This document shows positions 20,726-60,226 of a DNA stretch of 60,226 nucleotides, piece after piece. The notes below the pieces were generated by a model. That model saw only the letters and a program-made list of their open reading frames with translations, was not told where the DNA came from and did no database searches. A program made the translations under genes and the position numbers. Source of the stretch: a virus; IMG/VR virus record IMGVR_UViG_3300045988_163836, one strand, 5' to 3'. Positions within the stretch are counted from its first letter, which is position 1. Each line of letters begins with the position of its first letter.

Positions 20726-21007
20726 ATGAAGAAGATTATAATTCCTCAAGAAGAAGTAAATTATCTTTAGAAATTAAATTATGAAATTGAAGCTAGAAAA
20801 AATTTATGTCAATTTTTAATTAGACAAAATATTAGAAATAAAGCTTTTGATGATTATCATAATGAGTATATAGAATTATTTGCTGAATATGAATTAGCTA
20901 AATTAGAATTAGAAAATAATTATATCAAACCAGAAATTGGGAATCAAACTTGCAATTGGAATTTAGATTTTTATACAAATGAGGTAATTATTGATGTTAT
21001 TTCCTAA
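20726..21007 (+). CDS. small protein upstream of rSAM (RiPP accessory candidate)
   Basis: ORF with one TAG, overlapping the rSAM start. Confidence 0.4.
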
Positions 21008-22334
21008 AATAAGCCACATTCCTGAAGAATTTTCTGATTTTATAGGTCGTTTATATCCTGAAGATTGTTTAAATTCTTAGTCCGTATTTACATTAACATT
21101 TTAGGTTACAGATGATTGTTGTTTAAATTGTACTTATTGTTATCAAGGGCATAAAGGTAAACATAAATTATCTTTTGAAACAGCTAAACAGATGATTGAT
21201 TAGATATTAACCAGAGATAATAAAATTATTGGTTATATTGATTCTTATAAAATACCAGGAGTAATAATAGAATTTATAGGTGGAGAGCCATTTTTAGAAA
21301 TTGAATTAATTGATTAGATTACTGATTATTTTATTAATAAAATGATTGAATTGCGGCATCCTTGGGCTACTAAATATAAAATTTCAATTAGTTCTAATGG
21401 TATTTTATATTTTGAACAAAAAGTACAAGAGTATATTAAAAAAAATAATGAAAATTTAAGTTTATCAATTTCTATTGATGGAAATAAAAAATTACATGAC
21501 GCTTGTAGAGTTTTCCCTGATGGTAGTGGTAGTTATGATAAAGCATTGTCTGCCGCATTACATTATAGTCATAATTATAATAAATGGATTGGGAGTAAAA
21601 TGACTATCTCTCCATTTAATATAGATTATTTATATGACGCTGTTTTAGAAATGATAAACAATGGTTATAGTCAAATCAATCTAAATTGTGTGTATGAAAA
21701 AGGTTGGGAACTTAACCATGCCACTACATTATATTATTAGTTAAAAAAAATTGCTGATTATTTATTAAATAATGATTTGTGGGATAAAGTTTATTTATCT
21801 ATTTTTTATATTAATGATGGAAGTAAAAATTTATCTAATGATAATTGGTGTGGCGGGAATGGTCGTATGTTAGCCTTAAATTGGAAAGGTAAATATTATC
21901 CATGTTTACGTTATATGGAAGATAGCATAAGTAATCAGCCAGAATATTATATTGGAGATATTTATTAGGGAATAGGCCAAGATAATTTAACCATCAATAG
22001 ATTAAAAGATTTATCTGAAATAACAGTTATTAGTCAATCTCCTCAAGAATGTTTAGATTGTGAAATTTCTGGAGGATGCTCTTGGTGTACAGCTTATAAT
22101 TATCAAGAAACAGGTAATGTTAATAAAAGAGTTACTTATATTTGTGATATGCATTATGCTACAGTTCTAGCTTCTTTATATTATTTAAATTCTATTTTAA
22201 AAAAAATAAACTCGAATAAACGATTTAAATTTAATGGAGATAGGGAAAAAGCATTAAAAATTATCTCTTAGGATGAATATAATATAATAAAGGAGACAAT
22301 GACAAATGAAAATAGGAACGACAATAACTTCTGA
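20994..22334 (+). CDS. radical SAM / SPASM-domain peptide-modifying enzyme (8 in-frame TAG)
   Basis: CLNCTYC CX3CX2C cluster, GGEPFL, and a C-terminal SPASM-like CLDCEISGGCSWC...C..C. The track shows only a 132-aa fragment because of TAG codons. Confidence 0.7.
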
Positions 22335-22956
22335 TAGATTCAATGAATTAAAGAAAAAAATAAAGGCTGAATGTTTACGTCGTAAATATACCGGTAGTGT
22401 AAGTTCATATGGAGGGACTTCTTATGATTATACTACTTAGCCTGATAATGGAAAAGTTATTTCAAAAGAACACATAACAAAACTGGTAGAACCTATGGCG
22501 GCAATAAATATTGAAAATCAGAATGAAAATATAAATGTTATTAAAGATGATGATTTAAGTACATTAGAGGCAAAAATTACAGCTTATCAAGCTATGGGAT
22601 TAACTGATTCGAATACTGGATGTTCAGCTTATTGCACTGGATTATGTTCTACCAGTTGTAGCGAAAGTTGTGGAGTACAATGTTAGGGAACTTGTTTAGG
22701 TAGTTGTAAGAATACTTGCCAAGGAGGTTGTCAAAACACTTGCAGAGGCGGATGTCGAAGCAGTTGTAGTGGTAGCTGTAGCGGATGTAGTGGTTCTTGC
22801 TCAGGTGGATGCTATACAGGATGTAGTGGATGCAGTGGTAGCTGTACAAGACATTGTGCTAACGATTGTACTGGATTGTGTGGAGGAAGTTGTTCAGGTT
22901 TATGTAAAAGCTGTACTGGCACATGTAGTGGCACAGGTAGAAATGAACCATTATAA
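22306..22956 (+). CDS. Cys-rich repeat peptide/protein (candidate rSAM substrate), 2 TAG
   Basis: 216 aa with a Cys-poor N-terminal half, then about 40 Cys in G/S-C-x2-3-C repeats. Lies immediately downstream of the rSAM-SPASM gene with an SD. Confidence 0.55.
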
Positions 22957-23002: not shown

Positions 23003-23644
23003 ATGTATCTTATACAAGATAATATTTTATTTTGTATAAGTAATTATAAGAATATAAATTTTCAAAAATATAATATGGATATTTAGATTTTATCTGTTTA
23101 TGAATATTTATGTCAAAAATATATTTTACATAAGGATATATTAAAACAATATAAAGGTATAGAATTATATAAAATTATGGAAATTCAAGATAAAATTTTT
23201 ATTAATAGATATAAATTATTATTGTAGATTATTAATAATAATTATAATTTTGATAATTAGTTAATATATACTGATTTTAATAATTTTAATTTTGAACAAA
23301 ATATTAGTTATATAAATTATTGTTTAAAATTGCTATTTAATAATTTTAAAAAAATAGATAAACAATTTTGGAAAATTTTAGATTAGATTTATTTTTTAAT
23401 TAATGGTAAAACTAATTTATTTTTATTGTTGGGAAATTTTTATTTGAATAAAAGTAATTTATAGCAATTTACTGAAGAAATAAAAAAAATTCCTGGAATT
23501 AAAGAATAGCTCTCTTTTAGTTATACAGCTTTAAATTTAGCTATTGAAATTGATAAAGTTGCAGAAAATAAAAATTATCTTAATGAATTAATTGAAATTA
23601 TTGATAATCATTCACAAGAAAAAATTTATAAATTTGATATTTAA
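23003..23644 (+). CDS. TAG-rich hypothetical protein
   Basis: 213-codon frame with no TAA or TGA but about 6 TAG, in sequence of about 80% AT; an uninterrupted frame this long is unlikely by chance. Confidence 0.35.
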
Positions 23645-23689
23645 TAAAAATTAATATATAATATATATACAAAATAAAGAAAATAAAGA

Positions 23690-23805
23690 CTTTAACAGCA
23701 AAAAATGGACAGTAAATCCGTCGCAAATGCTACGCAGGTTCGAATCCTGCCCTCCCCACCATTATATGGCGGAGGTAGGGAAGCGGTTAAACCCAGCGGA
23801 ACCAA
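23690..23805 (+). other. tRNA-like unit 1: T-arm/acceptor 3' half with CCA, followed by a tRNA 5'-half-like segment (possible permuted tRNA)
   Basis: tccgt-cgcaaatgctac-gcagg ttcgaat cctgc cctcccc a cca (to 23761), then gcggagg ta ggg aagcggttaaa ccc a gcgga. The gcgga/tccgt and gcggagg/cctcccc segments can pair. Confidence 0.3.
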
Positions 23806-23912
23806 ATCAAATAAGTCTTGTTTGAATAAAATAATTATTTGATTTTTAATAAAAAATATTATATAATATTTATATAAAAAGAGAAAGGCTTTTACAGCAA
23901 CTTAAACTTTTT

Positions 23913-23987
23913 TCCGTGGTCGAATAACTGGATAATTCATCAGAGTTAATTCTGAAAATAAGGATTCGAATTCCTTCCTTGGAGCCA
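23913..23987 (+). tRNA. tRNA-like unit 2, noncanonical 6-nt anticodon loop GUUAAU
   Basis: Acceptor tccgtgg/ccttgga, D gaat-aactggata-attc, anticodon tcaga-gttaat-tctga, T aagga-ttcgaat-tcctt, then g-cca. Leader and trailer are paralogous to unit 1. Confidence 0.4.
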
Positions 23988-24078
23988 AGTATAAAAAGTC
24001 TTGGGTAAATTTCTTAATTTGAAAAAATTAAAAAAATATAATATAATATATAAGTAATCAATAAGAAATTAAATAAAT

Positions 24079-24226
24079 GGGGTCGTGGCCAAGCGGTAAG
24101 GCCGGCAACTTATCCAAGATTAGTTTAAATGGTAAAATAGTCTATGCGCAAGAAAGATGTGAGTTCAAACCTAACATTTTGGGCCAAATTGCCAAATCGT
24201 TGGTTCGAATCCAACCGGCCCCACCA
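24079..24226 (+). tRNA. tRNA (Gln-like D-arm) with about 78-nt ORF-less intervening sequence in the anticodon loop
   Basis: Acceptor ggggtcg/cggcccc, D gcc-aagcggtaa-ggc, anticodon stem ggcaa...ttgcc, T gttgg-ttcgaat-ccaac, a-cca. Insert helix ccaagat/attttgg is adjacent to the anticodon stem. Anticodon is ambiguous (UAU, UCA or CCA depending on splice position). Confidence 0.55.
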
Positions 24227-24561
24227 TATTCCAATAGAAAGGAATCAAAATAATGAAGTTGACAAATATTAAGTAGGTTGAAGATTTTATCGCAGCAGTT
24301 AATCGGGCACATAGTAATGTATGGCTGGTTAGTCCGCAGGGTGATAGATATAATATGAAATCTGCACTTTCACAGTATATTGCACTTGGTGCATTGCTCG
24401 GCCAGCATGGTGATGAATTGGAACTTTTCTGTGATAGTAAGCAGGATGAAGGCTTGTTTATTGAATTTTTTGTTCGTCATCCTGAAGTTTAATTGAAAAA
24501 TTAAAAAAAATATTATAAAATATATATACAAAATAAATGAGAAATAAATTCTCATTTGTAT

Positions 24562-26212: not shown

Positions 26213-26745
26213 GGTCAAGTTTGAGAAATTTCATAAAGCATCGCTGACGTTAAATGGCACTTATATGAAAACGCGTAAGTAATATAAGATAGCAAAATTC
26301 TCGTAGTTCATCCTATTAGAGAATCTTAAAGAGTAATGGCAAGATCATATTGCGGGAGACCGTGCGTATGAGATACCAATAAAGGTAGCACATCTTGTGT
26401 TGAACAAGATAAAAGATGGAAAGGATACCTGCCATGTTTGGACAGCAAAAGAAGGCGTTGAATGTAATCGAAAAACATTCCGTTGGTTCTTAGGGGAGCG
26501 ACGTAACAGTGAAACCCGAGGTTTGAGTTACCTTGTCCAAACGCTATGTATAGTCAAAGTCTAGGCAACAAGGCTTTAATTAGAGTTAAAATTGTTTTAA
26601 TTAAACTCATACTTGTGGAAATCAAGCAGATCCACTTTACTGGGCCTACTGTAAAAGCCAGTTTGATATAGCCTCCATACCCAATGAGGAATTTTTATAA
26701 AAGTCTATTTAATTTTTCTTGGCAGTTTAATTAAGTAGACTATAT
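26213..26745 (+). ncRNA. ORF-free structured block, candidate large ncRNA
   Basis: About 530 nt with no ORF in any frame, locally GC-enriched with many complementary segments, between tRNA-Lys and tRNA-Val. Confidence 0.3.
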
Positions 26746-28812: not shown

Positions 28813-28883
28813 CATAGAACTTGATGGAGCGTTCTATTAGTCTGATGCCTGCATTAGATTAAGTTTTATAACCATCATACTTG
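28813..28883. repeat. structured leader element, copy 2
   Basis: catagaacttgatggagcgttctattagtctgatgcctgcattagattaagttttataaccatcatacttgg. Confidence 0.6.
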
Positions 28884-28957
28884 GGGACATAGTTTATGGT
28901 AGGAAAACGTTGAATTTAATTCAAAGTCGAGGGTGCGATTCCCTCTGGCTCCACCAT
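28884..28957 (+). tRNA. noncanonical tRNA, anticodon arm ttgaa-tttaa-ttcaa (possible anticodon UUA)
   Basis: ggggaca ta gttt-atggtagga-aaac g ... agtc gaggg-tgcgatt-ccctc tggctcc a cca. The loop is 5 nt, or 7 nt (atttaat) if the last stem pair opens. Confidence 0.45.
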
Positions 28958-29089
28958 TTATGAAAGACAATACAGCAATTATACATTTGCTTTGGGAGCC
29001 GTGTGTTATAGGTTCGAGTCCTATTGTTTGGTCGAAGACCGAATATAGCGTAATTGGTAGCGCAACGTATAAAATTGTCTTGTTAATAT

Positions 29090-29162: not shown

Positions 29163-29288
29163 GAGATACATTAATCAAGCCTCCACGGGGCGTATCTTGG
29201 GTAATGCTAATTGATTAAAAAATTTTTGGTCGCGGAAAATTAATTTTGCAACCAAAATTTCCATAATATTATGGAGGAGATAATAATT

Positions 29289-29939: not shown

Positions 29940-30066
29940 TTTATATGAAAAGCCCATACAGCAACTTTTAATAGGATAAATAAGAAATTCTGCAAAAATT
30001 TTTTAGAGTTGGTTCAAATCCAGCAAATGATTTTAGGGTTTTGTTAAAATTGTTAAGGAGAAAATA

Positions 30067-30595: not shown

Positions 30596-30990
30596 ATAGA
30601 GAACCTTTCCGTGGTGATACTATTTAAACTAATCTCTATGAAACTTATTTCCACTTTTTTAAGTTTCTATGGTTAAACCCTGTTGAGGGCAAAGACTACA
30701 GGGTATTCCTTTCCATCCCTCATACATTAAGACTCATTTTCAGCAAACTTTTGCCTGCAAAGGTTCTACATACTTATTTATTACTAATAGATGAAAAAGT
30801 ATAATAAAGAAAATAAAGTATATTTTGAAAAGTTTTTTCTTTTTAGCTAGTTTAGTAAGCTAAATTCCGCGTTTTTATTTTGGCTTTTCAATGAGTCTTG
30901 TTTTTTAAAATAATTGGTATCGCTAAGCTTCATGGTAATTGTGGCGTATTTAAATCATAGATAGTTAAGGGTCTATAGCCAATTATAATA
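30596..30990 (+). ncRNA. ORF-free structured block
   Basis: About 390 nt without ORFs between two tRNAs; contains hairpins. Confidence 0.25.
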
Positions 30991-56569: not shown

Positions 56570-56918
56570 TCAGGGTTCTGTTAAAGATACATAATTGAAA
56601 AGGATTGATCTCCCTAAGTAGATTTGTATTGGAATGAAAAAATGAGGTCTAGATGACACAGATAACCTCCCCTGAACCATCCCTTTTGTTAGTAGGTTGT
56701 CGGGGTTAAATAACTAACAGTAAAGACACACGCAGCAAATATTAGATAAAATCTATGTGTTATTGGTTCAAGTCCAATATTATCTCTGTTAAGATAATTC
56801 ATCCAAAGGGTAGGATAATAGTTAATTTATTTAATGTGTCTTGTAAATTTGAATTTTAAAAAAAAATATTATATAATATATAAGTAATCAATAAGAAATT
56901 ATTAATTACTTATAATTT

Positions 56919-56997: not shown

Positions 56998-57525
56998 AGG
57001 TCAGTACAGTGTAATTGGTATCACCCCTGACTGGTTTGAAGGAGGTTCATTTTGTAGTCAAAAAGTAACAAAGATAAAGGACGTTTTGGATTAGCTATGG
57101 CTATTGCCTATTTCACTGACAAAGGCTATACAGTCTCAACTCCTTTAAATGATACTCAGTGGTATGATTTAATTATAGAACGAAATGGTAAATTTTAGAC
57201 AGTTCAATGTAAATGTACTGGAAGTTAGGATAATGTTATAATGTTAAGATCTTGCGGTGGTACTAAAGGAACTGTTTATGATAATGTTTTAAATCATTCT
57301 GAGCTTGATTTATTATTTTGTATAGATGTTCAAGGTAATATGTATGTAATTCCATTAAAAGAAATTTTAAAATCAGGAAATACAAAATAGATTACTTTAC
57401 GAACAGCTCCAACAAGCAATAATCAAGGCTTTTAGACTTATAAATTTCGAGTTCGATTCTCGTTTCAAACACCATAAATCAGGTGCTTAATGCGGTTGTT
57501 GGTTCAAGTCCAACCTGGCCTACCA
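56998..57525 (+). tRNA. tRNA-Tyr (GUA, type II) interrupted by about 440-nt ORF-containing intervening sequence
   Basis: 5' exon aggtcag ta c agtg-taattggta-tcac c cctga ctg (to 57033). 3' exon from 57475: taaa tcagg + arm tgcttaatgcggtt + gttgg-ttcaagt-ccaac ctggcct a cca. The spliced loop CUGUAAA matches the Tyr consensus. Confidence 0.6.
57052..57477 (+). CDS. intron-encoded Hjc/PD-(D/E)xK-like nuclease (paralog C, TTG start, 6 TAG)
   Basis: KGRFGLAMAIAYFTDKGYTV...YDLIIERNGKF-TAG-TVQCK; SD aaggagg; the TAA stop overlaps the first nt of the 3' exon. Confidence 0.55.
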
Positions 57526-57584: not shown

Positions 57585-58925
57585 ACTTTAAAAATTAAAT
57601 AATAATTTAATTACGGTTATAGTACAACTCAGTGCAGACTTAACACCATAAGGCTGAGAAATCGATCCACTCTGGCGGAGATTGTAGAATGGAATATTCA
57701 AAGGATACTTTGAAATTATTTCTAAATCTTTTGTAGTGATACATTAGATTCACGCATCGAAGGATGCGGCTACGGGGAGATTGTGCTGGGATAATCGCAT
57801 TTAAGGTCCTGTTCTTCTCGCTTCCATAATAGACAGCATTGTTAACAGCAATGCCGAATCCTTGTTAGGGTAAGGCTGGTAACCTTGCCAAACCAAGGAA
57901 ATACCAATAAGGAAGTTGGCAATTGATGTGGCGTAATCTACTATAAGAGAAGGTCAAGGGTCAAGTAGCCGAAATTTGCCAAGACAGTATGATATTAATT
58001 TAGTAAAAATTATTGGTAATACTATTCTGAATGGTCGGTGAAAGATAGAGGTAGTCAGTCCTCTGTGAGATTTGGCTTAGGCCGGGGCAAGAAGTTATGA
58101 AGTCGCTATTCATAGCTCAGACTTGTTTCCTTACTTACCTAATAAAATGAAGATTATTAACCAGTAGGGCGAAGGTCCGTAGTATAATTGTAATTAAGTT
58201 ATTATTTAATAACTTACGATTTCCTTTCCTGTTAAAAATAAATCATTAAATGATTTATTTGAAATGAATTATGTAGATGCTAATATAGGCGGTGGCTTGC
58301 ACATTAACCTCATTGGGTAGCCAATCCCACATCGTTAGAGGCCTCTGCGGAACCTGCTCCTATGGCTGTAGGGTTCTTACATAATCTAATCAAATAAGGT
58401 TGACTCGCCTGTTGTCCGGTGAAATGATATATCTGGAAACCGTACTGATACGTATCAGATATTTGATTAGCGTCCTAATCTTGGTTAATTAGGTAGTGGA
58501 ACAATACGCTAAACCAGCCAGCTCTCCACTATAAATAAGCTGAATAGGGATGTTTGTGGCTCACATACCAAAAAGCCATTACCAAGTGCGGAAATAAGAT
58601 CCTTGGTAGTCTCTCATATAAAGGCGTGGAAAATGAGACGTAATGGACTACGAAAAAGACATATAATAGGTAGAGTTATTATTTATTGTGTTAGATTATA
58701 GAATGAAAATCCTATTATTAAAAACTGTATATTCTACTTCCTATTGGTAGGTATTATAAGTTTAATGGTAGGTCAAAAATTTAATATATTCCAATAGCTA
58801 ATGAATGAGGTAGGCTGAAGTACTTAGTGGCGTGGGCAGGCATAGAGGCGACCTATAAATGGTTAGTGGCTATGGTGTAGTTTATTCCTATTGGATATAT
58901 TAATTTTTGTAAATATATTCTACTG
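57585..58925 (+). ncRNA. large ORF-free structured RNA candidate (GOLLD/ROOL-like by size and context)
   Basis: About 1.3 kb with no ORF of 60 aa or more on either strand, locally GC-enriched and rich in complementary stretches. Preceded by promoter motif 57545-57580 and flanked by tRNAs. Confidence 0.45.
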
Positions 58926-59087: not shown

Positions 59088-59162
59088 TCCGGCTTTGGGT
59101 AACGGTTAGCTCAGCTGACTCTAAATCAGCAAGTCTCAGTTCGACTCTGAGAGCCGGTGCCA
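59088..59162 (+). tRNA. amber suppressor tRNA (anticodon CUA), glutamine-type identity
   Basis: tccggct tt gggt-aacggtta-gctc a gctga-ctctaaa-tcagc aagt ctcag-ttcgact-ctgag agccggt g cca. Loop CUCUAAA; weak 1-72 pair (U-U) and G73, as in tRNA-Gln. Confidence 0.8.
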
Positions 59163-59261
59163 GGCGTAAGGCTCACGCAGCAAATTTACTTTTGAAAGTT
59201 CACCTAAAATGAATTGCTATTTTTCAAAATTGAGTCTTGATTTAATTAATATAGTTTATTT

Positions 59262-60085: not shown

Positions 60086-60226
60086 TTAAACAATAGTAGC
60101 TAACGGCAGTTGAACAGACGGGTCGGGGCTAACATAGAAAGGTTAGCAGGTAGTACGGCGGTAGGTAACAAATCCGCAAGTCGAAATGAGTCGGGAAATC
60201 CGAATGATACGGCTTAGATGTTTTCC

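What the first reader, a model, noticed from the sequence alone, without database searches (positions are those of the whole stretch)
23655..24010. Two paralogous promoter-driven tRNA-like units: one truncated or permuted, one with a 6-nt anticodon loop
Two paralogous units end in a textbook T-arm, acceptor 3' strand and encoded CCA.

Unit 1 (leader ctttaacagcaa...) has only about 56 nt of tRNA-like sequence: a 3' anticodon-stem strand, a long variable region, the T-arm and the acceptor 3' strand. About 8 nt downstream lies a tRNA 5'-half-like segment, gcggagg-ta-ggg-aagcggttaaa-ccc-a-gcgga. Its acceptor and anticodon-stem strands are complementary to those of the upstream 3' half (gcgga/tccgt; gcggagg/cctcccc with one mismatch). 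This is the order expected for a circularly permuted tRNA gene, as in Cyanidioschyzon, or for separately processed halves, as in Nanoarchaeum. Leader aagacttta and trailer ataagtctt are also complementary.

Unit 2 (leader cttttacagcaa...) folds as a near-complete cloverleaf but with a perfect 5-bp anticodon stem closing a 6-nt loop GUUAAU.

Either these are novel small RNAs using tRNA-like 3' ends, or tRNA genes with non-canonical organisation. They sit directly upstream of the interrupted tRNA at 24079.
Basis: partly seen in the sequence, partly recalled or inferred. Interest (0 to 1): 0.6.

Follow-up and report, generated by a model that had tools for sequence, protein, structure and literature searches.

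The report
Phage Y-RNA-like tRNA mimics
The two units are real small-RNA genes of a gut phage that imitate tRNAs (one is a circularly rearranged copy of tRNA-Tyr); they most likely work as Y-RNA-like partners of the phage's own Ro60-like protein, a kind of RNA already known from bacteria and other phages, rather than as decoding tRNAs.

Summary
Unit 1 (23686-23819) has the order: anticodon-arm-like hairpin, long variable region, T arm, acceptor 3' strand-ACCA, 7-nt linker, acceptor 5' strand, D arm, anticodon-stem 5' strand. Unit 2 (23885-24002) is a normal-order cloverleaf with a 6-nt anticodon loop.

Both units sit inside the same scaffold: their own promoter-like block, a covarying 7-9 bp terminal stem, and an ACAGCAA motif just 3' of its 5' strand.

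Sixteen homologues of Unit 1 keep the rearranged order, and 15 of 28 base pairs covary. In most relatives where enough flank is held, the unit lies within about 4 kb of a Ro-like RNA-binding protein gene (DUF2828+vWA) on the same strand; in one clade it is 57 nt upstream. The window's own genome (188 kb) encodes that protein 8.5 kb past the window end.

The stem+ACAGCAA module also occurs next to this gene in a mycobacteriophage (weak full-length YrlA hit) and an E. coli phage.

This is the architecture of bacterial YrlA (Unit 1) and, partly, D. radiodurans Yrn1 (Unit 2). I file it as a new variant of a known kind.

A functional permuted tRNA-Tyr gene is not excluded but unlikely (about 0.07).

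The parts
23634..23664 (+). Promoter-like block of Unit 1 (TTGATA-N17-TATAATAT)
   Evidence: The consensus TTGAHW-N17-TAWAATAT has 15 matches in the window against 0.31 expected, 14 of them on the + strand. No transcription data.
23686..23819 (+). Unit 1: complete YrlA-type Y-RNA-like gene, a circularly permuted tRNA-Tyr mimic inside a terminal stem
   Evidence: Model R1 scores it at 157.8 bits. There are 16 homologues in other contigs. Covariation: 15 of 28 pairs change on both sides.
23686..23692 (+). Terminal stem, 5' strand (AAGACTT); pairs with 23813-23819
   Evidence: 4 of 6 modelled pairs covary: AAGACTT/AAGTCTT, AGACCT/AGGTCT, GGATGC/GCATCC, GATATGAA/TTCATATC.
23695..23701 (+). ACAGCAA motif, presumed protein-binding element
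   Evidence: Conserved directly 3' of the stem in Units 1 and 2. Also present in 95 stem-forming sites upstream of Ro-like genes in 60 loci, and in mycobacteriophage Lumos and E. coli phage REP8.
23705..23721 (+). Local anticodon-arm-like hairpin ATGGA-CAGTAAA-TCCGT (tRNA-Tyr loop with A33)
   Evidence: The loop is CTGTAAA in 8 of 17 homologues, CAGTAAA in 6 and TTGTAAA in 1. The hairpin is absent in the two distant homologues L001 and L004.
23717..23721 (+). Anticodon-stem 3' strand TCCGT; its conserved partner is GCGGA at 23796-23800
   Evidence: 3 of 5 pairs covary: CCCGT/ACGGG in L019, TCAGT/ACTGA in L004, ACCGA/TCGGT in L001.
23734..23750 (+). T arm GCAGG-TTCGAAT-CCTGC
   Evidence: 3 of 5 pairs covary.
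23751..23775 (+). Acceptor-like stem closed by a loop: CCTCCCC, A, CCA, TTATATG, GCGGAGG
   Evidence: 5 of 7 pairs covary. The 2:71 position is unpaired in 15 of 17 homologues. CCA is invariant in the 13 aligned homologues, distant ones included.
23778..23794 (+). D arm GGG-AAGCGGTTAAA-CCC (class II type)
   Evidence: It is invariant in homologues. The same D arm occurs in a contiguous bacterial tRNA-Tyr (L185).
23796..23800 (+). Anticodon-stem 5' strand GCGGA
23813..23819 (+). Terminal stem, 3' strand (AAGTCTT)
23839..23869 (+). Promoter-like block of Unit 2
23885..24002 (+). Unit 2: same scaffold (AAGGCTTTT / AAAAGTCTT stem, ACAGCAA at 23894-23900) around a normal-order tRNA-like body
   Evidence: Found only in 4 close relatives at 95-98% identity, so there is no covariation power.
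23913..23987 (+). tRNA-like body of Unit 2 (acceptor, D arm, anticodon arm with a 6-nt loop at 23945-23950, T arm, G, CCA)
   Evidence: ARAGORN calls it a tRNA only after one base is added to the loop. CCA reads CAA in L005.

Best explanation
Units 1 and 2 are genes for phage Y-RNA-like small RNAs. Each has two modules.

The first is a scaffold: a 7-9 bp stem formed by the 5' and 3' ends, plus the adjacent ACAGCAA. I infer that this scaffold is the binding site of the phage's Ro60-like protein (DUF2828 plus a vWA-type domain), which this genome encodes 8.5 kb beyond the window.

The second module is a tRNA mimic.
- In Unit 1 the mimic is YrlA-type: T arm, acceptor stem closed by a loop, D arm, and an anticodon-like stem that runs into the scaffold. 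This amounts to a circular permutation of a class II tRNA-Tyr. It keeps the GUA loop heptamer, A73 and an encoded CCA.
- In Unit 2 the scaffold is attached at the acceptor end. The body is a normal-order cloverleaf with a 6-nt loop, which resembles D. radiodurans Yrn1.

Shown here: the fold (by covariation), the conservation, and the genomic link to the Ro-like gene.

Inferred:
- The units are transcribed from their own promoters.
- The Ro-like protein binds the scaffold.
- RNase P cuts the acceptor loop 5' of G23769, and the 3' end is trimmed back to the invariant CCA. This would give a two-piece RNA, as in M. smegmatis YrlA.
- The tRNA-like module tethers or titrates a tRNA-binding factor, such as an exoribonuclease, a modification enzyme, TyrRS, or a host anticodon nuclease.
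For: 1. Conserved order. All 17 Unit 1 sequences (window plus 16 homologues), including a Rhizobium phage and the divergent contig L004, keep the same order.

2. Covariation. 15 of 28 pairs change on both sides and 96.8% of cells are paired. No shuffle out of 500 reaches this, and structures slid by 1-3 columns give 0-2 such pairs.

3. Neighbouring gene.
- In the L003 clade the unit ends 57 nt before a DUF2828+DUF7788 gene. In L007, L008, L014 and L004 the gene lies within about 4 kb on the same strand.
- In Rhizobium phage RHph_Y65 the unit lies directly upstream of an annotated TROVE protein.
- The DUF2828-type and TROVE-type proteins both match PHROG 850 'RNA-binding protein'.
- The DUF2828-type protein is 35-36% identical over its full length to mycobacteriophage proteins annotated 'Ro-like RNA binding protein'.

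4. The window's own genome. The window is 99.99% identical to a 188-kb contig (L180). That contig carries the DUF2828+DUF7788 gene 8.5 kb past the window end, on the same strand.

5. The scaffold as a family.
- In 60 non-redundant loci, 95 of 190 '+' strand CAGCAA sites have a perfect 7-bp partner for the upstream 7-mer, against 8.4 expected. On the '-' strand the figures are 5 of 72 against 5.1 expected.
- The same stem+ACAGCAA is present in mycobacteriophage Lumos, at a full-length but sub-threshold Rfam YrlA hit just 3' of its Ro-like gene.
- It is also present in E. coli phage REP8.

6. Rfam YrlA gives a sub-threshold hit on a sister unit in the window at 29000-29070 (26.7 bits).

7. Literature (PMC4201824).
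- YrlA consists of a T arm, a closed acceptor stem, a D arm and a terminal stem, with a motif near the 5' end.
- M. smegmatis YrlA has a 7-bp acceptor stem, is cut by RNase P and receives CCA.
- Yrn1 has a 5-bp anticodon stem with a 6-nt loop.
- Phage Ro60 with Y-like RNAs has been studied experimentally (PMC12135203).

8. tRNA-arm mimicry across the family. 42 of 121 inner modules contain a 5-bp stem with a 7-nt 'YU NNN R N' loop, against 4.6 expected.
Against: - No binding, expression or processing data exist. The link to the protein is by position only.
- In the window's own genome the Ro-like gene is about 45 kb from Unit 1, not within the 4 kb typical of YrlA.
- Both the units and the Ro-like gene sit in phage tRNA clusters, so co-location could partly reflect that shared context.
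- The described GNCGAA/CGAA motif is absent. ACAGCAA takes its place.
- Rfam YrlA does not hit Unit 1 or Unit 2 at E<=10.
- Pfam TROVE does not hit the protein. A profile of the protein finds no Ro60 among PDB sequences. hhalign against one TROVE protein gives only 60% probability.
- A Y-RNA role does not require the canonical anticodon heptamer, A73 and the invariant CCA, yet they are retained.
- Most covariation comes from two distant homologues, and the alignment was fitted to the model.
- Unit 2 has no covariation support at all.
Confidence: 0.66

Rival explanations
1. Unit 1 is a true circularly permuted tRNA-Tyr gene. The leader-trailer stem with ACAGCAA would be a processing signal. The transcript is cut after GCGGA (23800) and before CAGTAAA (23710), and the ends are ligated. 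RNase P and 3' trimming then open the acceptor loop, giving an 84-nt decoding tRNA-Tyr. The same element inside the anticodon loops of other phage tRNA genes would be an intron removed by the same machinery.
For: - Joining the halves at 31/32 gives a sequence that ARAGORN calls tRNA-Tyr(GTA).
- The 7 nt directly 5' of the anticodon-stem 3' strand are CTGTAAA in 8 of 17 homologues. In the Rhizobium phage they are CTGTGGA, together with a G-1:C73 pair.
- A73, G1-C72, the long variable region and CCA are retained, and CCA is invariant.
- Other phage tRNA genes (three in L073, three in L088, two in L004) carry a hairpin plus (A)CAGCA insert at about position 31/32. In several of them the insert is followed by a plausible 7-nt anticodon loop: ATGTCAA, ATGGTAA, ATCCAAT, GTGAAAA.
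- The window's canonical tRNA-Tyr gene is interrupted by a 441-nt insert.
Against: - The window clade has A33 (CAGTAAA), and L004 has AGATAAA.
- There is a conserved C2xC71 mismatch.
- Uninterrupted canonical tRNA-Tyr genes coexist with Unit 1 homologues in L017, L021 and, by inference, L178.
- No bulge-helix-bulge motif is present, and no RNA ligase or splicing endonuclease was found among the window ORFs scanned. Only GIY-YIG, HNH and PD-(D/E)XK homing-type nucleases turned up.
- The same scaffold encloses modules that cannot become tRNAs: lone T arms, lone anticodon-like hairpins, and 50-70 nt units.
- Some 'exon' combinations do not fit any tRNA identity, for example a GGA anticodon in a class I body.
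Confidence: 0.07
2. The units are tRNA or anticodon-arm decoys that act without the Ro-like protein. They would soak up or mislead host tRNA-targeting factors such as anticodon nucleases, tRNA-guanine transglycosylase or other modification enzymes. The terminal stem would only stabilise them against exonucleases.
For: - Family members display anticodon-arm-like hairpins, with loops for Lys UUU, Tyr GUA, Asn GUU, Phe GAA, Thr GGU, Arg UCU and others.
- The anticodon arm of Unit 1 matches that of the L021 phage's own tRNA-Tyr (GCGGA-CTGTAAA-TCCGT; Unit 1 there has ACGGA).
- From my own knowledge, not tested here: host nucleases that cut tRNA-Lys or tRNA-Tyr are known phage defences.
Against: - The ACAGCAA motif and stem are conserved across phages of Actinobacteria, Enterobacteria and gut Clostridia-type hosts, always alongside the Ro-like gene. 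This argues for a dedicated protein partner.
- A decoy role and Ro binding are not mutually exclusive.
Confidence: 0.12
3. The units are decayed remnants of tRNA genes, scrambled by recombination in a tRNA cluster rich in homing endonucleases. They would have no function.
For: - The cluster holds GIY-YIG, HNH and PD-(D/E)XK endonuclease genes and interrupted tRNAs.
- L002 shows a recombinant in which the 5'-half segment follows a complete tRNA-Leu.
- CCA reads CAA in Unit 2 of L005.
Against: - The permuted order is conserved in 17 sequences from very different phages, with compensatory changes in all four main helices.
- Each unit has its own promoter-like block.
- Unit 1 is better conserved than its flanks between the window and L029 or L022 (86-89% against about 65-70% in the neighbouring segments).
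Confidence: 0.03

Closest known systems
YrlA (Rfam RF02553), bacterial and phage Y RNA; closest are M. smegmatis YrlA and the mycobacteriophage YrlA RNAs (Chen et al. 2014, PMC4201824)
   Same: - A terminal stem formed by the two ends, with a short conserved motif just after its 5' strand.
- A tRNA-like module in the order T arm, closed acceptor stem, D arm.
- Encoded near a Ro60-type gene, on the same strand.
- Several Y-like RNAs per genome.
- A 7-bp acceptor stem and a CCA, as in M. smegmatis YrlA, which is cut by RNase P.
- Mycobacteriophage Lumos carries the same stem+ACAGCAA at its YrlA hit.
   Different: - The motif is ACAGCAA, not GNCGAA.
- The body is class II tRNA-Tyr-like, with a 12-nt variable region and a 3-bp D stem.
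- It has an extra anticodon-loop heptamer and a competing local anticodon hairpin.
- CCA is fully encoded.
- The Rfam model does not score it.
- In this genome the protein gene is 45 kb away.
D. radiodurans Yrn1 (Y RNA)
   Same: For Unit 2: the tRNA-like arms are in normal order relative to the 5' end, and a 5-bp anticodon-like stem closes a 6-nt loop (PMC4201824). The terminal stem takes the place of free acceptor ends.
   Different: Unit 2 also has a full 7-bp acceptor stem, a regular D arm, a discriminator and CCA inside the terminal stem. No sequence similarity was tested or expected.
Circularly permuted tRNA genes of Cyanidioschyzon merolae and other algae (from my own knowledge)
   Same: The 3' half lies upstream of the 5' half in one transcript. 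The halves rebuild a canonical cloverleaf. The leader and trailer pair with each other.
   Different: The algal genes rely on a bulge-helix-bulge motif, the splicing endonuclease, a ligase and a circular intermediate. None of these was found here. The window's loop also has A33.
Two-piece (permuted) tmRNA (Rfam RF04321)
   Same: The gene order puts acceptor 3' strand and CCA before the acceptor 5' strand. The transcript is processed into two base-paired pieces. There is a weak Rfam hit on 23734-23777 (15.9 bits).
   Different: The units have no mRNA-like reading frame, no pseudoknots and no alanine identity. The score is far below the gathering threshold of 47 bits.
Vault RNA with TEP1 (TROVE) and major vault protein
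   Same: Small RNAs with a terminal stem are encoded in a genome that places a TROVE-related protein gene next to a major vault protein homologue.
   Different: There is no sequence or Rfam match to vault RNA, and no evidence that the phage MVP forms particles or binds RNA.

Membership tests
Bacterial/phage Y RNA, YrlA type | Long stem formed by pairing of the 5' and 3' ends | tested here: met
   The stem is 7 bp in Unit 1 and 9 bp in Unit 2. In Unit 1, 4 of the 6 modelled pairs covary. MFE folds recover the stem in all six window units folded.
Bacterial/phage Y RNA, YrlA type | tRNA-like module in the order T arm, stem-loop in the acceptor position, D arm | tested here: met
   Met for Unit 1. 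Unit 2 does not meet it: its order is D arm, anticodon arm, T arm, which resembles Yrn1.
Bacterial/phage Y RNA, YrlA type | Conserved GNCGAAN0-1G (CGAA) motif near the 5' end | tested here: not met
   No such motif is present. ACAGCAA sits at the equivalent place. ACAGCAA is also found in the mycobacteriophage Lumos unit that gives a full-length YrlA hit.
Bacterial/phage Y RNA, YrlA type | Encoded within about 4 kb of the Ro60 orthologue, on the same strand | tested here: inconclusive
   Met in relatives: L003, L002, L006, L010, L012, L013, L017, L018, L021, L007, L008, L014, L004 and L001. In the window's own genome and its closest relatives the gene is on the same strand but about 44-45 kb downstream.
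Bacterial/phage Y RNA, YrlA type | Score at or above the Rfam RF02553 gathering threshold (69 bits) | tested here: not met
   Neither unit gets a hit at E<=10. A sister unit at 29000-29070 scores 26.7 bits. Units next to Ro genes in L001 and L176 score 34-39 bits.
Bacterial/phage Y RNA, YrlA type | Physically bound by the Ro60 protein | not testable with these tools
   This needs RIP/CLIP or EMSA.
Ro60/TROVE protein family (the presumed partner) | TROVE (HEAT-repeat ring) plus vWA/MIDAS domain | tested here: inconclusive
   - Pfam gives DUF2828+DUF7788 with a weak VWA_2 hit, and no TROVE.
- It matches the same PHROG 850 as an annotated TROVE protein.
- hhalign gives 60% probability.
- A profile finds no Ro60 among PDB sequences.
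- Homologues are annotated 'Ro-like RNA binding protein'.
- A preprint reports a Ro60-like structure for Bas63 gp130 (PMC11482910). I assume, but did not check, that gp130 is a member of this family.
Circularly permuted tRNA gene | 3' half upstream of 5' half; the halves rebuild a canonical cloverleaf | tested here: met
   ARAGORN calls the joined sequence tRNA-Tyr(GTA).
Circularly permuted tRNA gene | Bulge-helix-bulge motif at the leader/trailer junction, plus a splicing endonuclease and ligase | tested here: not met
   The junction is a 7-bp helix next to a 24/12-nt asymmetric internal loop. No ligase or splicing endonuclease was found among the window ORFs scanned. The rest of the 188-kb genome was not scanned.
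Circularly permuted tRNA gene | Canonical anticodon loop (U33) in the rebuilt tRNA | tested here: not met
   The window and its five closest relatives have CAGTAAA (A33). Eight homologues have CTGTAAA.
Circularly permuted tRNA gene | Circular intermediate and a mature contiguous tRNA | not testable with these tools
   This needs RNA sequencing.
tRNA (Rfam RF00005 / ARAGORN) | Contiguous cloverleaf with a 7-nt anticodon loop that scores above threshold | tested here: not met
   Neither ARAGORN nor Rfam tRNA hits either unit. Unit 2 is called only after a base is inserted into the loop.

The most novel reading that the evidence does not exclude
The stem+ACAGCAA element is a protein-guided RNA processing signal used by these phages in three topologies. 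Placed as an insert between nucleotides 31 and 32 of tRNA genes, it is an intron. Placed as leader plus trailer around swapped halves (Unit 1), it marks a permuted gene. It also occurs around free-standing modules. On this reading Unit 1 is a functional circularly permuted tRNA-Tyr gene matured by cleavage, ligation and RNase P. That would be the first permuted tRNA gene, and the first protein-dependent tRNA splicing, in a bacterial virus. The Ro-like protein, possibly with the neighbouring vault-protein homologue, would serve as the platform.
Probability: 0.07. Interest if true: 0.9.

Novelty: new variant of a known kind. Interest (0 to 1): 0.55.

Why it matters
Y RNAs that mimic tRNA are known, but what the tRNA-like part does is still unknown.

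Unit 1 is an unusually complete mimic. It keeps the tRNA-Tyr anticodon heptamer, A73, the long variable region and an invariant encoded CCA. This makes concrete hypotheses testable: RNase P cleavage, aminoacylation by TyrRS, and capture of anticodon nucleases or modification enzymes.

The work also defines a simple signature: a terminal stem plus ACAGCAA. This signature finds hundreds of such RNAs next to the DUF2828-type Ro-like gene in gut, enterobacterial and mycobacterial phages. Many of them display T arms or anticodon arms.

In practical terms, tRNA finders and Rfam miss these genes, so phage tRNA clusters are under-annotated.

The same genomes place the Ro-like gene beside a major vault protein homologue. 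A preprint on phage MVPs (10.1101/2023.11.10.566534) reported no TEP1 homologue. The pairing seen here suggests that a TROVE-type partner and candidate RNAs do exist.

Tried and rejected
- Rfam at E<=10 over 23400-24300 gave nothing useful for either unit. Only a weak permuted-tmRNA hit and plastid UTR models matching the T arm appeared.
- tblastn of the Rhizobium phage TROVE protein and of the DUF2828 protein against the window found no partner gene inside the 60 kb.
- Megablast of 20 kb of the window against GenBank phages found nothing.
- The DUF2828 protein, as a single sequence and as a 38-sequence profile, found no Ro60 among PDB sequences.
- MFE folding does not recover the cloverleaves. 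It recovers only the terminal stems and single arms. Z-scores are modest: -2.4 for Unit 1 and -0.3 for Unit 2.
- A genome scan for a contiguous tRNA with Unit 1's D arm plus anticodon arm found nothing. The D arm alone found two Clostridium-labelled MAG contigs carrying Unit 1 itself and one Bacteroidia tRNA-Tyr.
- Pfam scans of about 18 window ORFs found no RNA ligase, kinase/phosphatase or splicing endonuclease.
- ARAGORN's intron mode places the 'introns' of interrupted tRNAs inconsistently. My own parser recovered only 6 cases, some of them mis-parsed. The regularity of the 31/32 insertion site therefore rests on few examples.
- Burroughs & Aravind 2016 could not be retrieved. What I say about it is from memory.
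- I considered the ACAGCAA element as a DNA or promoter feature and rejected that, because the two strands of the stem covary.
Full report
**Context**

The window is 31% G+C, and nearly all genes lie on the + strand. It reads TAG as a sense codon: ORFs with up to 12 in-frame TAGs close the coding gaps, and a tRNA with anticodon CTA lies at 59088. It holds two RNA-gene clusters, at 23.6-30.9 kb and 54.6-60.2 kb. These clusters contain about 17 tRNAs, ROOL and RAGATH-33, interspersed with GIY-YIG, HNH and PD-(D/E)XK homing-type endonuclease genes. The window is 99.99% identical over its last 10.7 kb to a 188-kb metagenomic contig (L180). It is therefore a piece of a large gut phage genome.

**The observation**

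Unit 1 runs from 23686 to 23819:
- AAGACTT
- TA-ACAGCAA-AAA
- ATGGA-CAGTAAA-TCCGT
- a 12-nt variable region
- T arm GCAGG-TTCGAAT-CCTGC
- CCTCCCC-A-CCA
- linker TTATATG
- GCGGAGG, then TA
- D arm GGG-AAGCGGTTAAA-CCC, then A
- GCGGA
- 12 nt
- AAGTCTT

Unit 2 runs from 23885 to 24002:
- AAGGCTTTT
- ACAGCAA and a 12-nt linker
- a complete cloverleaf (23913-23987) whose perfect 5-bp anticodon stem closes the 6-nt loop GTTAAT
- G-CCA
- AAAAGTCTT

ARAGORN and Rfam tRNA call neither unit. Joining the two halves of Unit 1 in silico at position 31/32 yields a sequence that ARAGORN calls tRNA-Tyr(GTA). Unit 2 is called a tRNA once one base is added to its loop.

Each unit is preceded by a copy of a promoter-like block, TTGAHW-N17-TAWAATAT. 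This block occurs 15 times in the window against 0.31 expected.

What the two units share is a scaffold: promoter, terminal stem and ACAGCAA. The order of their tRNA-like parts differs.

**Relatives of Unit 1**

- A distant blastn search hit Rhizobium phage RHph_Y65. There the same rearranged order lies directly upstream of an annotated TROVE (Ro60-type) gene, in a stretch that also gives two sub-threshold Rfam YrlA hits.
- A pattern spanning the T loop and the D arm in permuted order found 20 viral contigs.
- A covariance model built on 13 of these sequences scores 17 sequences at 109-162 bits.
- On the model-fitted alignment, 96.8% of cells pair and 15 of 28 pairs show changes on both sides. 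No shuffle out of 500 reaches this. Sliding the partners by 1-3 columns leaves 0-2 such pairs.
- Every main helix is supported: terminal stem 4 of 6 pairs, long-range anticodon-like stem 3 of 5, T stem 3 of 5, acceptor 5 of 7.
- Two caveats apply. Most double changes come from two distant homologues (L001, L004), and the alignment leans towards the model.
- The local hairpin ATGGA-CAGTAAA-TCCGT is as stable as the long-range pairing in the window (-24.7 against -24.1 kcal/mol). But L001 and L004 lack it, and in L019 only the long-range pair is compensated. The long-range stem is therefore the conserved one.
- The CCA after the discriminator is invariant in the 13 aligned homologues, including both distant ones.

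**The neighbouring gene**

In the L003 clade the unit ends 57 nt before a 496-aa gene with Pfam DUF2828 + DUF7788 and a weak vWA hit. A DUF7192 protein and a MoxR-like AAA ATPase follow it. tblastn finds the same gene within about 4 kb on the same strand in most other loci where enough flank is held.

What this protein is:
- It matches the same PHROG (850, 'RNA-binding protein') as the Rhizobium TROVE protein.
- It is 35-36% identical over its full length to mycobacteriophage proteins annotated 'Ro-like RNA binding protein'. Homologues occur in 694 GenBank phage records, including Felixounaviruses.
- Direct evidence for a TROVE fold is weak: hhalign gives 60% probability, and there is no PDB sequence hit.
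- A preprint reports Ro60-like structure for Bas63 gp130, a Felixounavirus protein lying directly upstream of a run of tRNA genes (PMC11482910). I assume this protein belongs to the same family, but I did not check it.

The window itself lacks the gene. Its genome does not. In L180 and L178 the DUF2828+DUF7788 gene starts 8.5 kb beyond the window end, on the same strand. In the closest IMG/VR relatives it lies 44-45 kb downstream of Unit 1.

**The scaffold is a family signature**

I examined the 5 kb upstream of the Ro-like gene in 60 non-redundant loci.
- CAGCAA occurs 190 times on the gene's strand and 72 times on the other strand.
- On the gene's strand, 95 sites have a perfect 7-bp complement to the 7-mer lying 3-5 nt upstream, against 8.4 expected.
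- On the other strand the figures are 5 against 5.1 expected.
- The consensus is AAGAC-N3-5-(A)CAGCAA ... GTCTT.

The inner modules vary: permuted tRNA-like bodies, lone T arms, or short hairpins. Of 121 unique inner modules, 42 contain a 5-bp stem with a 7-nt 'YU NNN R N' loop, against 4.6 expected. Some are T loops and others are anticodon-like loops such as CTTTTAA, CTGAAAA, CTGTTAA and CTGTAAA.

The same stem+ACAGCAA is present in mycobacteriophage Lumos, at a full-length sub-threshold Rfam YrlA hit just downstream of its Ro-like gene. It is also present in E. coli phage REP8, including a YrlA-type unit. This recurrence across very different phages, always alongside this protein family, is my main reason to take the scaffold as the protein's binding site.

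The window carries at least five more such units: 28964-29081, 29949-30042, 30731-30897, 56723-56842 and 59168-59238. Rfam YrlA scores the first of these at 26.7 bits.

**Comparison with what is known**

Chen et al. 2014 (PMC4201824) describe YrlA as follows:
- a tRNA-like domain made of a T arm, a stem-loop in the acceptor position and a D arm;
- found in more than 250 bacteria and 22 phages, usually within 4 kb of the Ro60 gene on the same strand.

M. smegmatis YrlA has a 7-bp acceptor stem, is cut by RNase P in vivo and in vitro, and acquires CCA, giving two halves that stay bound to Ro60. D. radiodurans Yrn1 has the opposite arm order and a 5-bp anticodon-like stem with a 6-nt loop.

Unit 1 matches the first description. 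Unit 2 matches the second only in part.

Phage Ro60 with two Y-like RNAs has been studied structurally (PMC12135203).

The differences here are these:
- the motif is ACAGCAA rather than GNCGAA;
- the body is class II tRNA-Tyr-like;
- the anticodon heptamer is retained;
- CCA is fully encoded;
- the protein gene is distant in this genome;
- Rfam scores are well below threshold.

**The permuted-tRNA reading**

This reading cannot be dismissed outright.
- The heptamer directly before the anticodon-stem 3' strand is a canonical tRNA-Tyr loop in 8 of 17 homologues.
- The Rhizobium copy looks tRNA-His-like (CTGTGGA plus a G-1:C73 pair).
- Several phage tRNA genes carry a hairpin+ACAGCAA insert at about position 31/32. 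This is topologically the same RNA as Unit 1, with the chain ends moved.

Against it:
- A33 in the window clade;
- the conserved C2xC71 mismatch;
- coexisting canonical tRNA-Tyr genes;
- no bulge-helix-bulge motif and no ligase or splicing nuclease among the ORFs scanned;
- the many family members that could never become tRNAs.

I put it at about 0.07.

**Verdict**

Units 1 and 2 are most likely Y-RNA-like tRNA mimics that partner the phage's Ro-like protein (confidence 0.66). They are a new variant of a known kind. Function beyond binding is inferred, not shown.

Noticed in passing
L180 19249-20447; L178 17887-19425 and 20004-20447; L022 5001-6524 and 7008-9506 (window-equivalent about 68.7 kb, beyond the window end): [quoted passage not shown] The pair recurs in 19 of 80 Ro-like loci and in the window's clade. 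A preprint on phage MVPs reported finding no TEP1 homologue, so a TROVE-type neighbour and candidate RNAs may have been overlooked.
   Followed up: partly
window 56998-57525: A tRNA-Tyr(GTA) gene is split after G34 by a 441-nt insert (57034-57474). The insert encodes a protein that, by eye, resembles a PD-(D/E)XK homing endonuclease, with in-frame TAGs. Its ends form a tRNA-like minihelix (GTTTGAA ... CGAG-TTCGATT-CTCG-TTCAAAC-ACCA). The gene is uninterrupted in the close relative L178 (7114-7200). It may be a mobile intron-like element excised by tRNA-processing enzymes.
   Followed up: partly
window 24079-24223: A tRNA with a 73-76 nt insert in the anticodon loop (Rfam tRNA 46.6 bits). The insert itself looks like a small nested tRNA-like fold (outer pairing CCAAGATTAG / CTAACATTTTGG, T-loop-like GAGTTCAAAC). 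It does not carry the ACAGCAA motif.
   Followed up: partly
window 28964-29081, 29949-30042, 30731-30897, 56723-56842, 59168-59238: Five more units have the same terminal stem + (A/G)CAGCAA scaffold. Two are YrlA-type (T arm, closed acceptor, D arm), one holds a lone T arm, and two are other types.
   Followed up: partly
L073 4370-4759; L088 1756-2135 and 4645-4772; L004 3608-3860: These are tRNA genes with a 34-64 nt insert at about position 31/32. The insert consists of a 5-6 bp hairpin followed by NN-(A)CAGCA(A/C). In several cases a plausible 7-nt anticodon loop follows directly. They are either Ro-binding tRNA mimics or an undescribed type of intron.
   Followed up: partly
window 26413-26578 (stem GTTTGGAC 26436-26443 / GTCCAAAC about 26536-26543): This 166-nt stretch is 95% identical to L029 2218-2383, far above the identity of the flanks. 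It folds with a terminal stem followed by AGCAA (z = -2.0). It may be another structured RNA of the same family.
   Followed up: partly
window 28883-28956: A tRNA (Rfam 48.5 bits, not called by ARAGORN) whose anticodon arm reads TTGAA-TTTAA-TTCAA. That is either a 5-nt loop or, with the last pair open, ATTTAAT with anticodon TTA. It is possibly an ochre-suppressor-like tRNA in a TAG-recoded phage.
   Followed up: no
window 29163-29218: There is a weak HDV-like ribozyme hit (HDV-F-prausnitzii, 20.7 bits, E=0.64) immediately 3' of tRNA-Met. This is where theta ribozymes of recoded gut phages are reported to sit (PMC10879173 seen only as title and abstract).
   Followed up: no
window 57604-58197 and 60099-60211: ROOL RNA (323 bits) and RAGATH-33 (139 bits) lie in the second RNA cluster, among tRNAs and Y-like units.
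   Followed up: no
window 20991-22956: Just upstream of Unit 1 lie a 447-aa ORF with a CxxxCxxC motif, which I judged radical-SAM/SPASM-like by eye, and an overlapping ORF encoding a very Cys/Gly/Ser-rich 216-aa protein. Both have in-frame TAGs. This may be a peptide-maturation pair. No family search was run on them.
   Followed up: no
L002 4285-4420: A recombinant form: a complete tRNA-Leu(CAA) ending in CCA is followed by the linker, the Unit 1 5'-half segment and the trailer. This suggests exchange at the T arm or acceptor.
   Followed up: no
L017 2031-2104; L021 902-975: ARAGORN reports a tRNA with a four-base anticodon (taaa), which implies an 8-nt anticodon loop, in phages that carry a Unit 1 homologue.
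   Followed up: no
L183 and L184 (GTDB MAG contigs labelled Clostridium sp.): Near-identical copies of Unit 1, with their promoter blocks, occur on short contigs binned into Clostridium MAGs. This hints at a Clostridia host or at phage contigs mis-binned into the MAGs.
   Followed up: no
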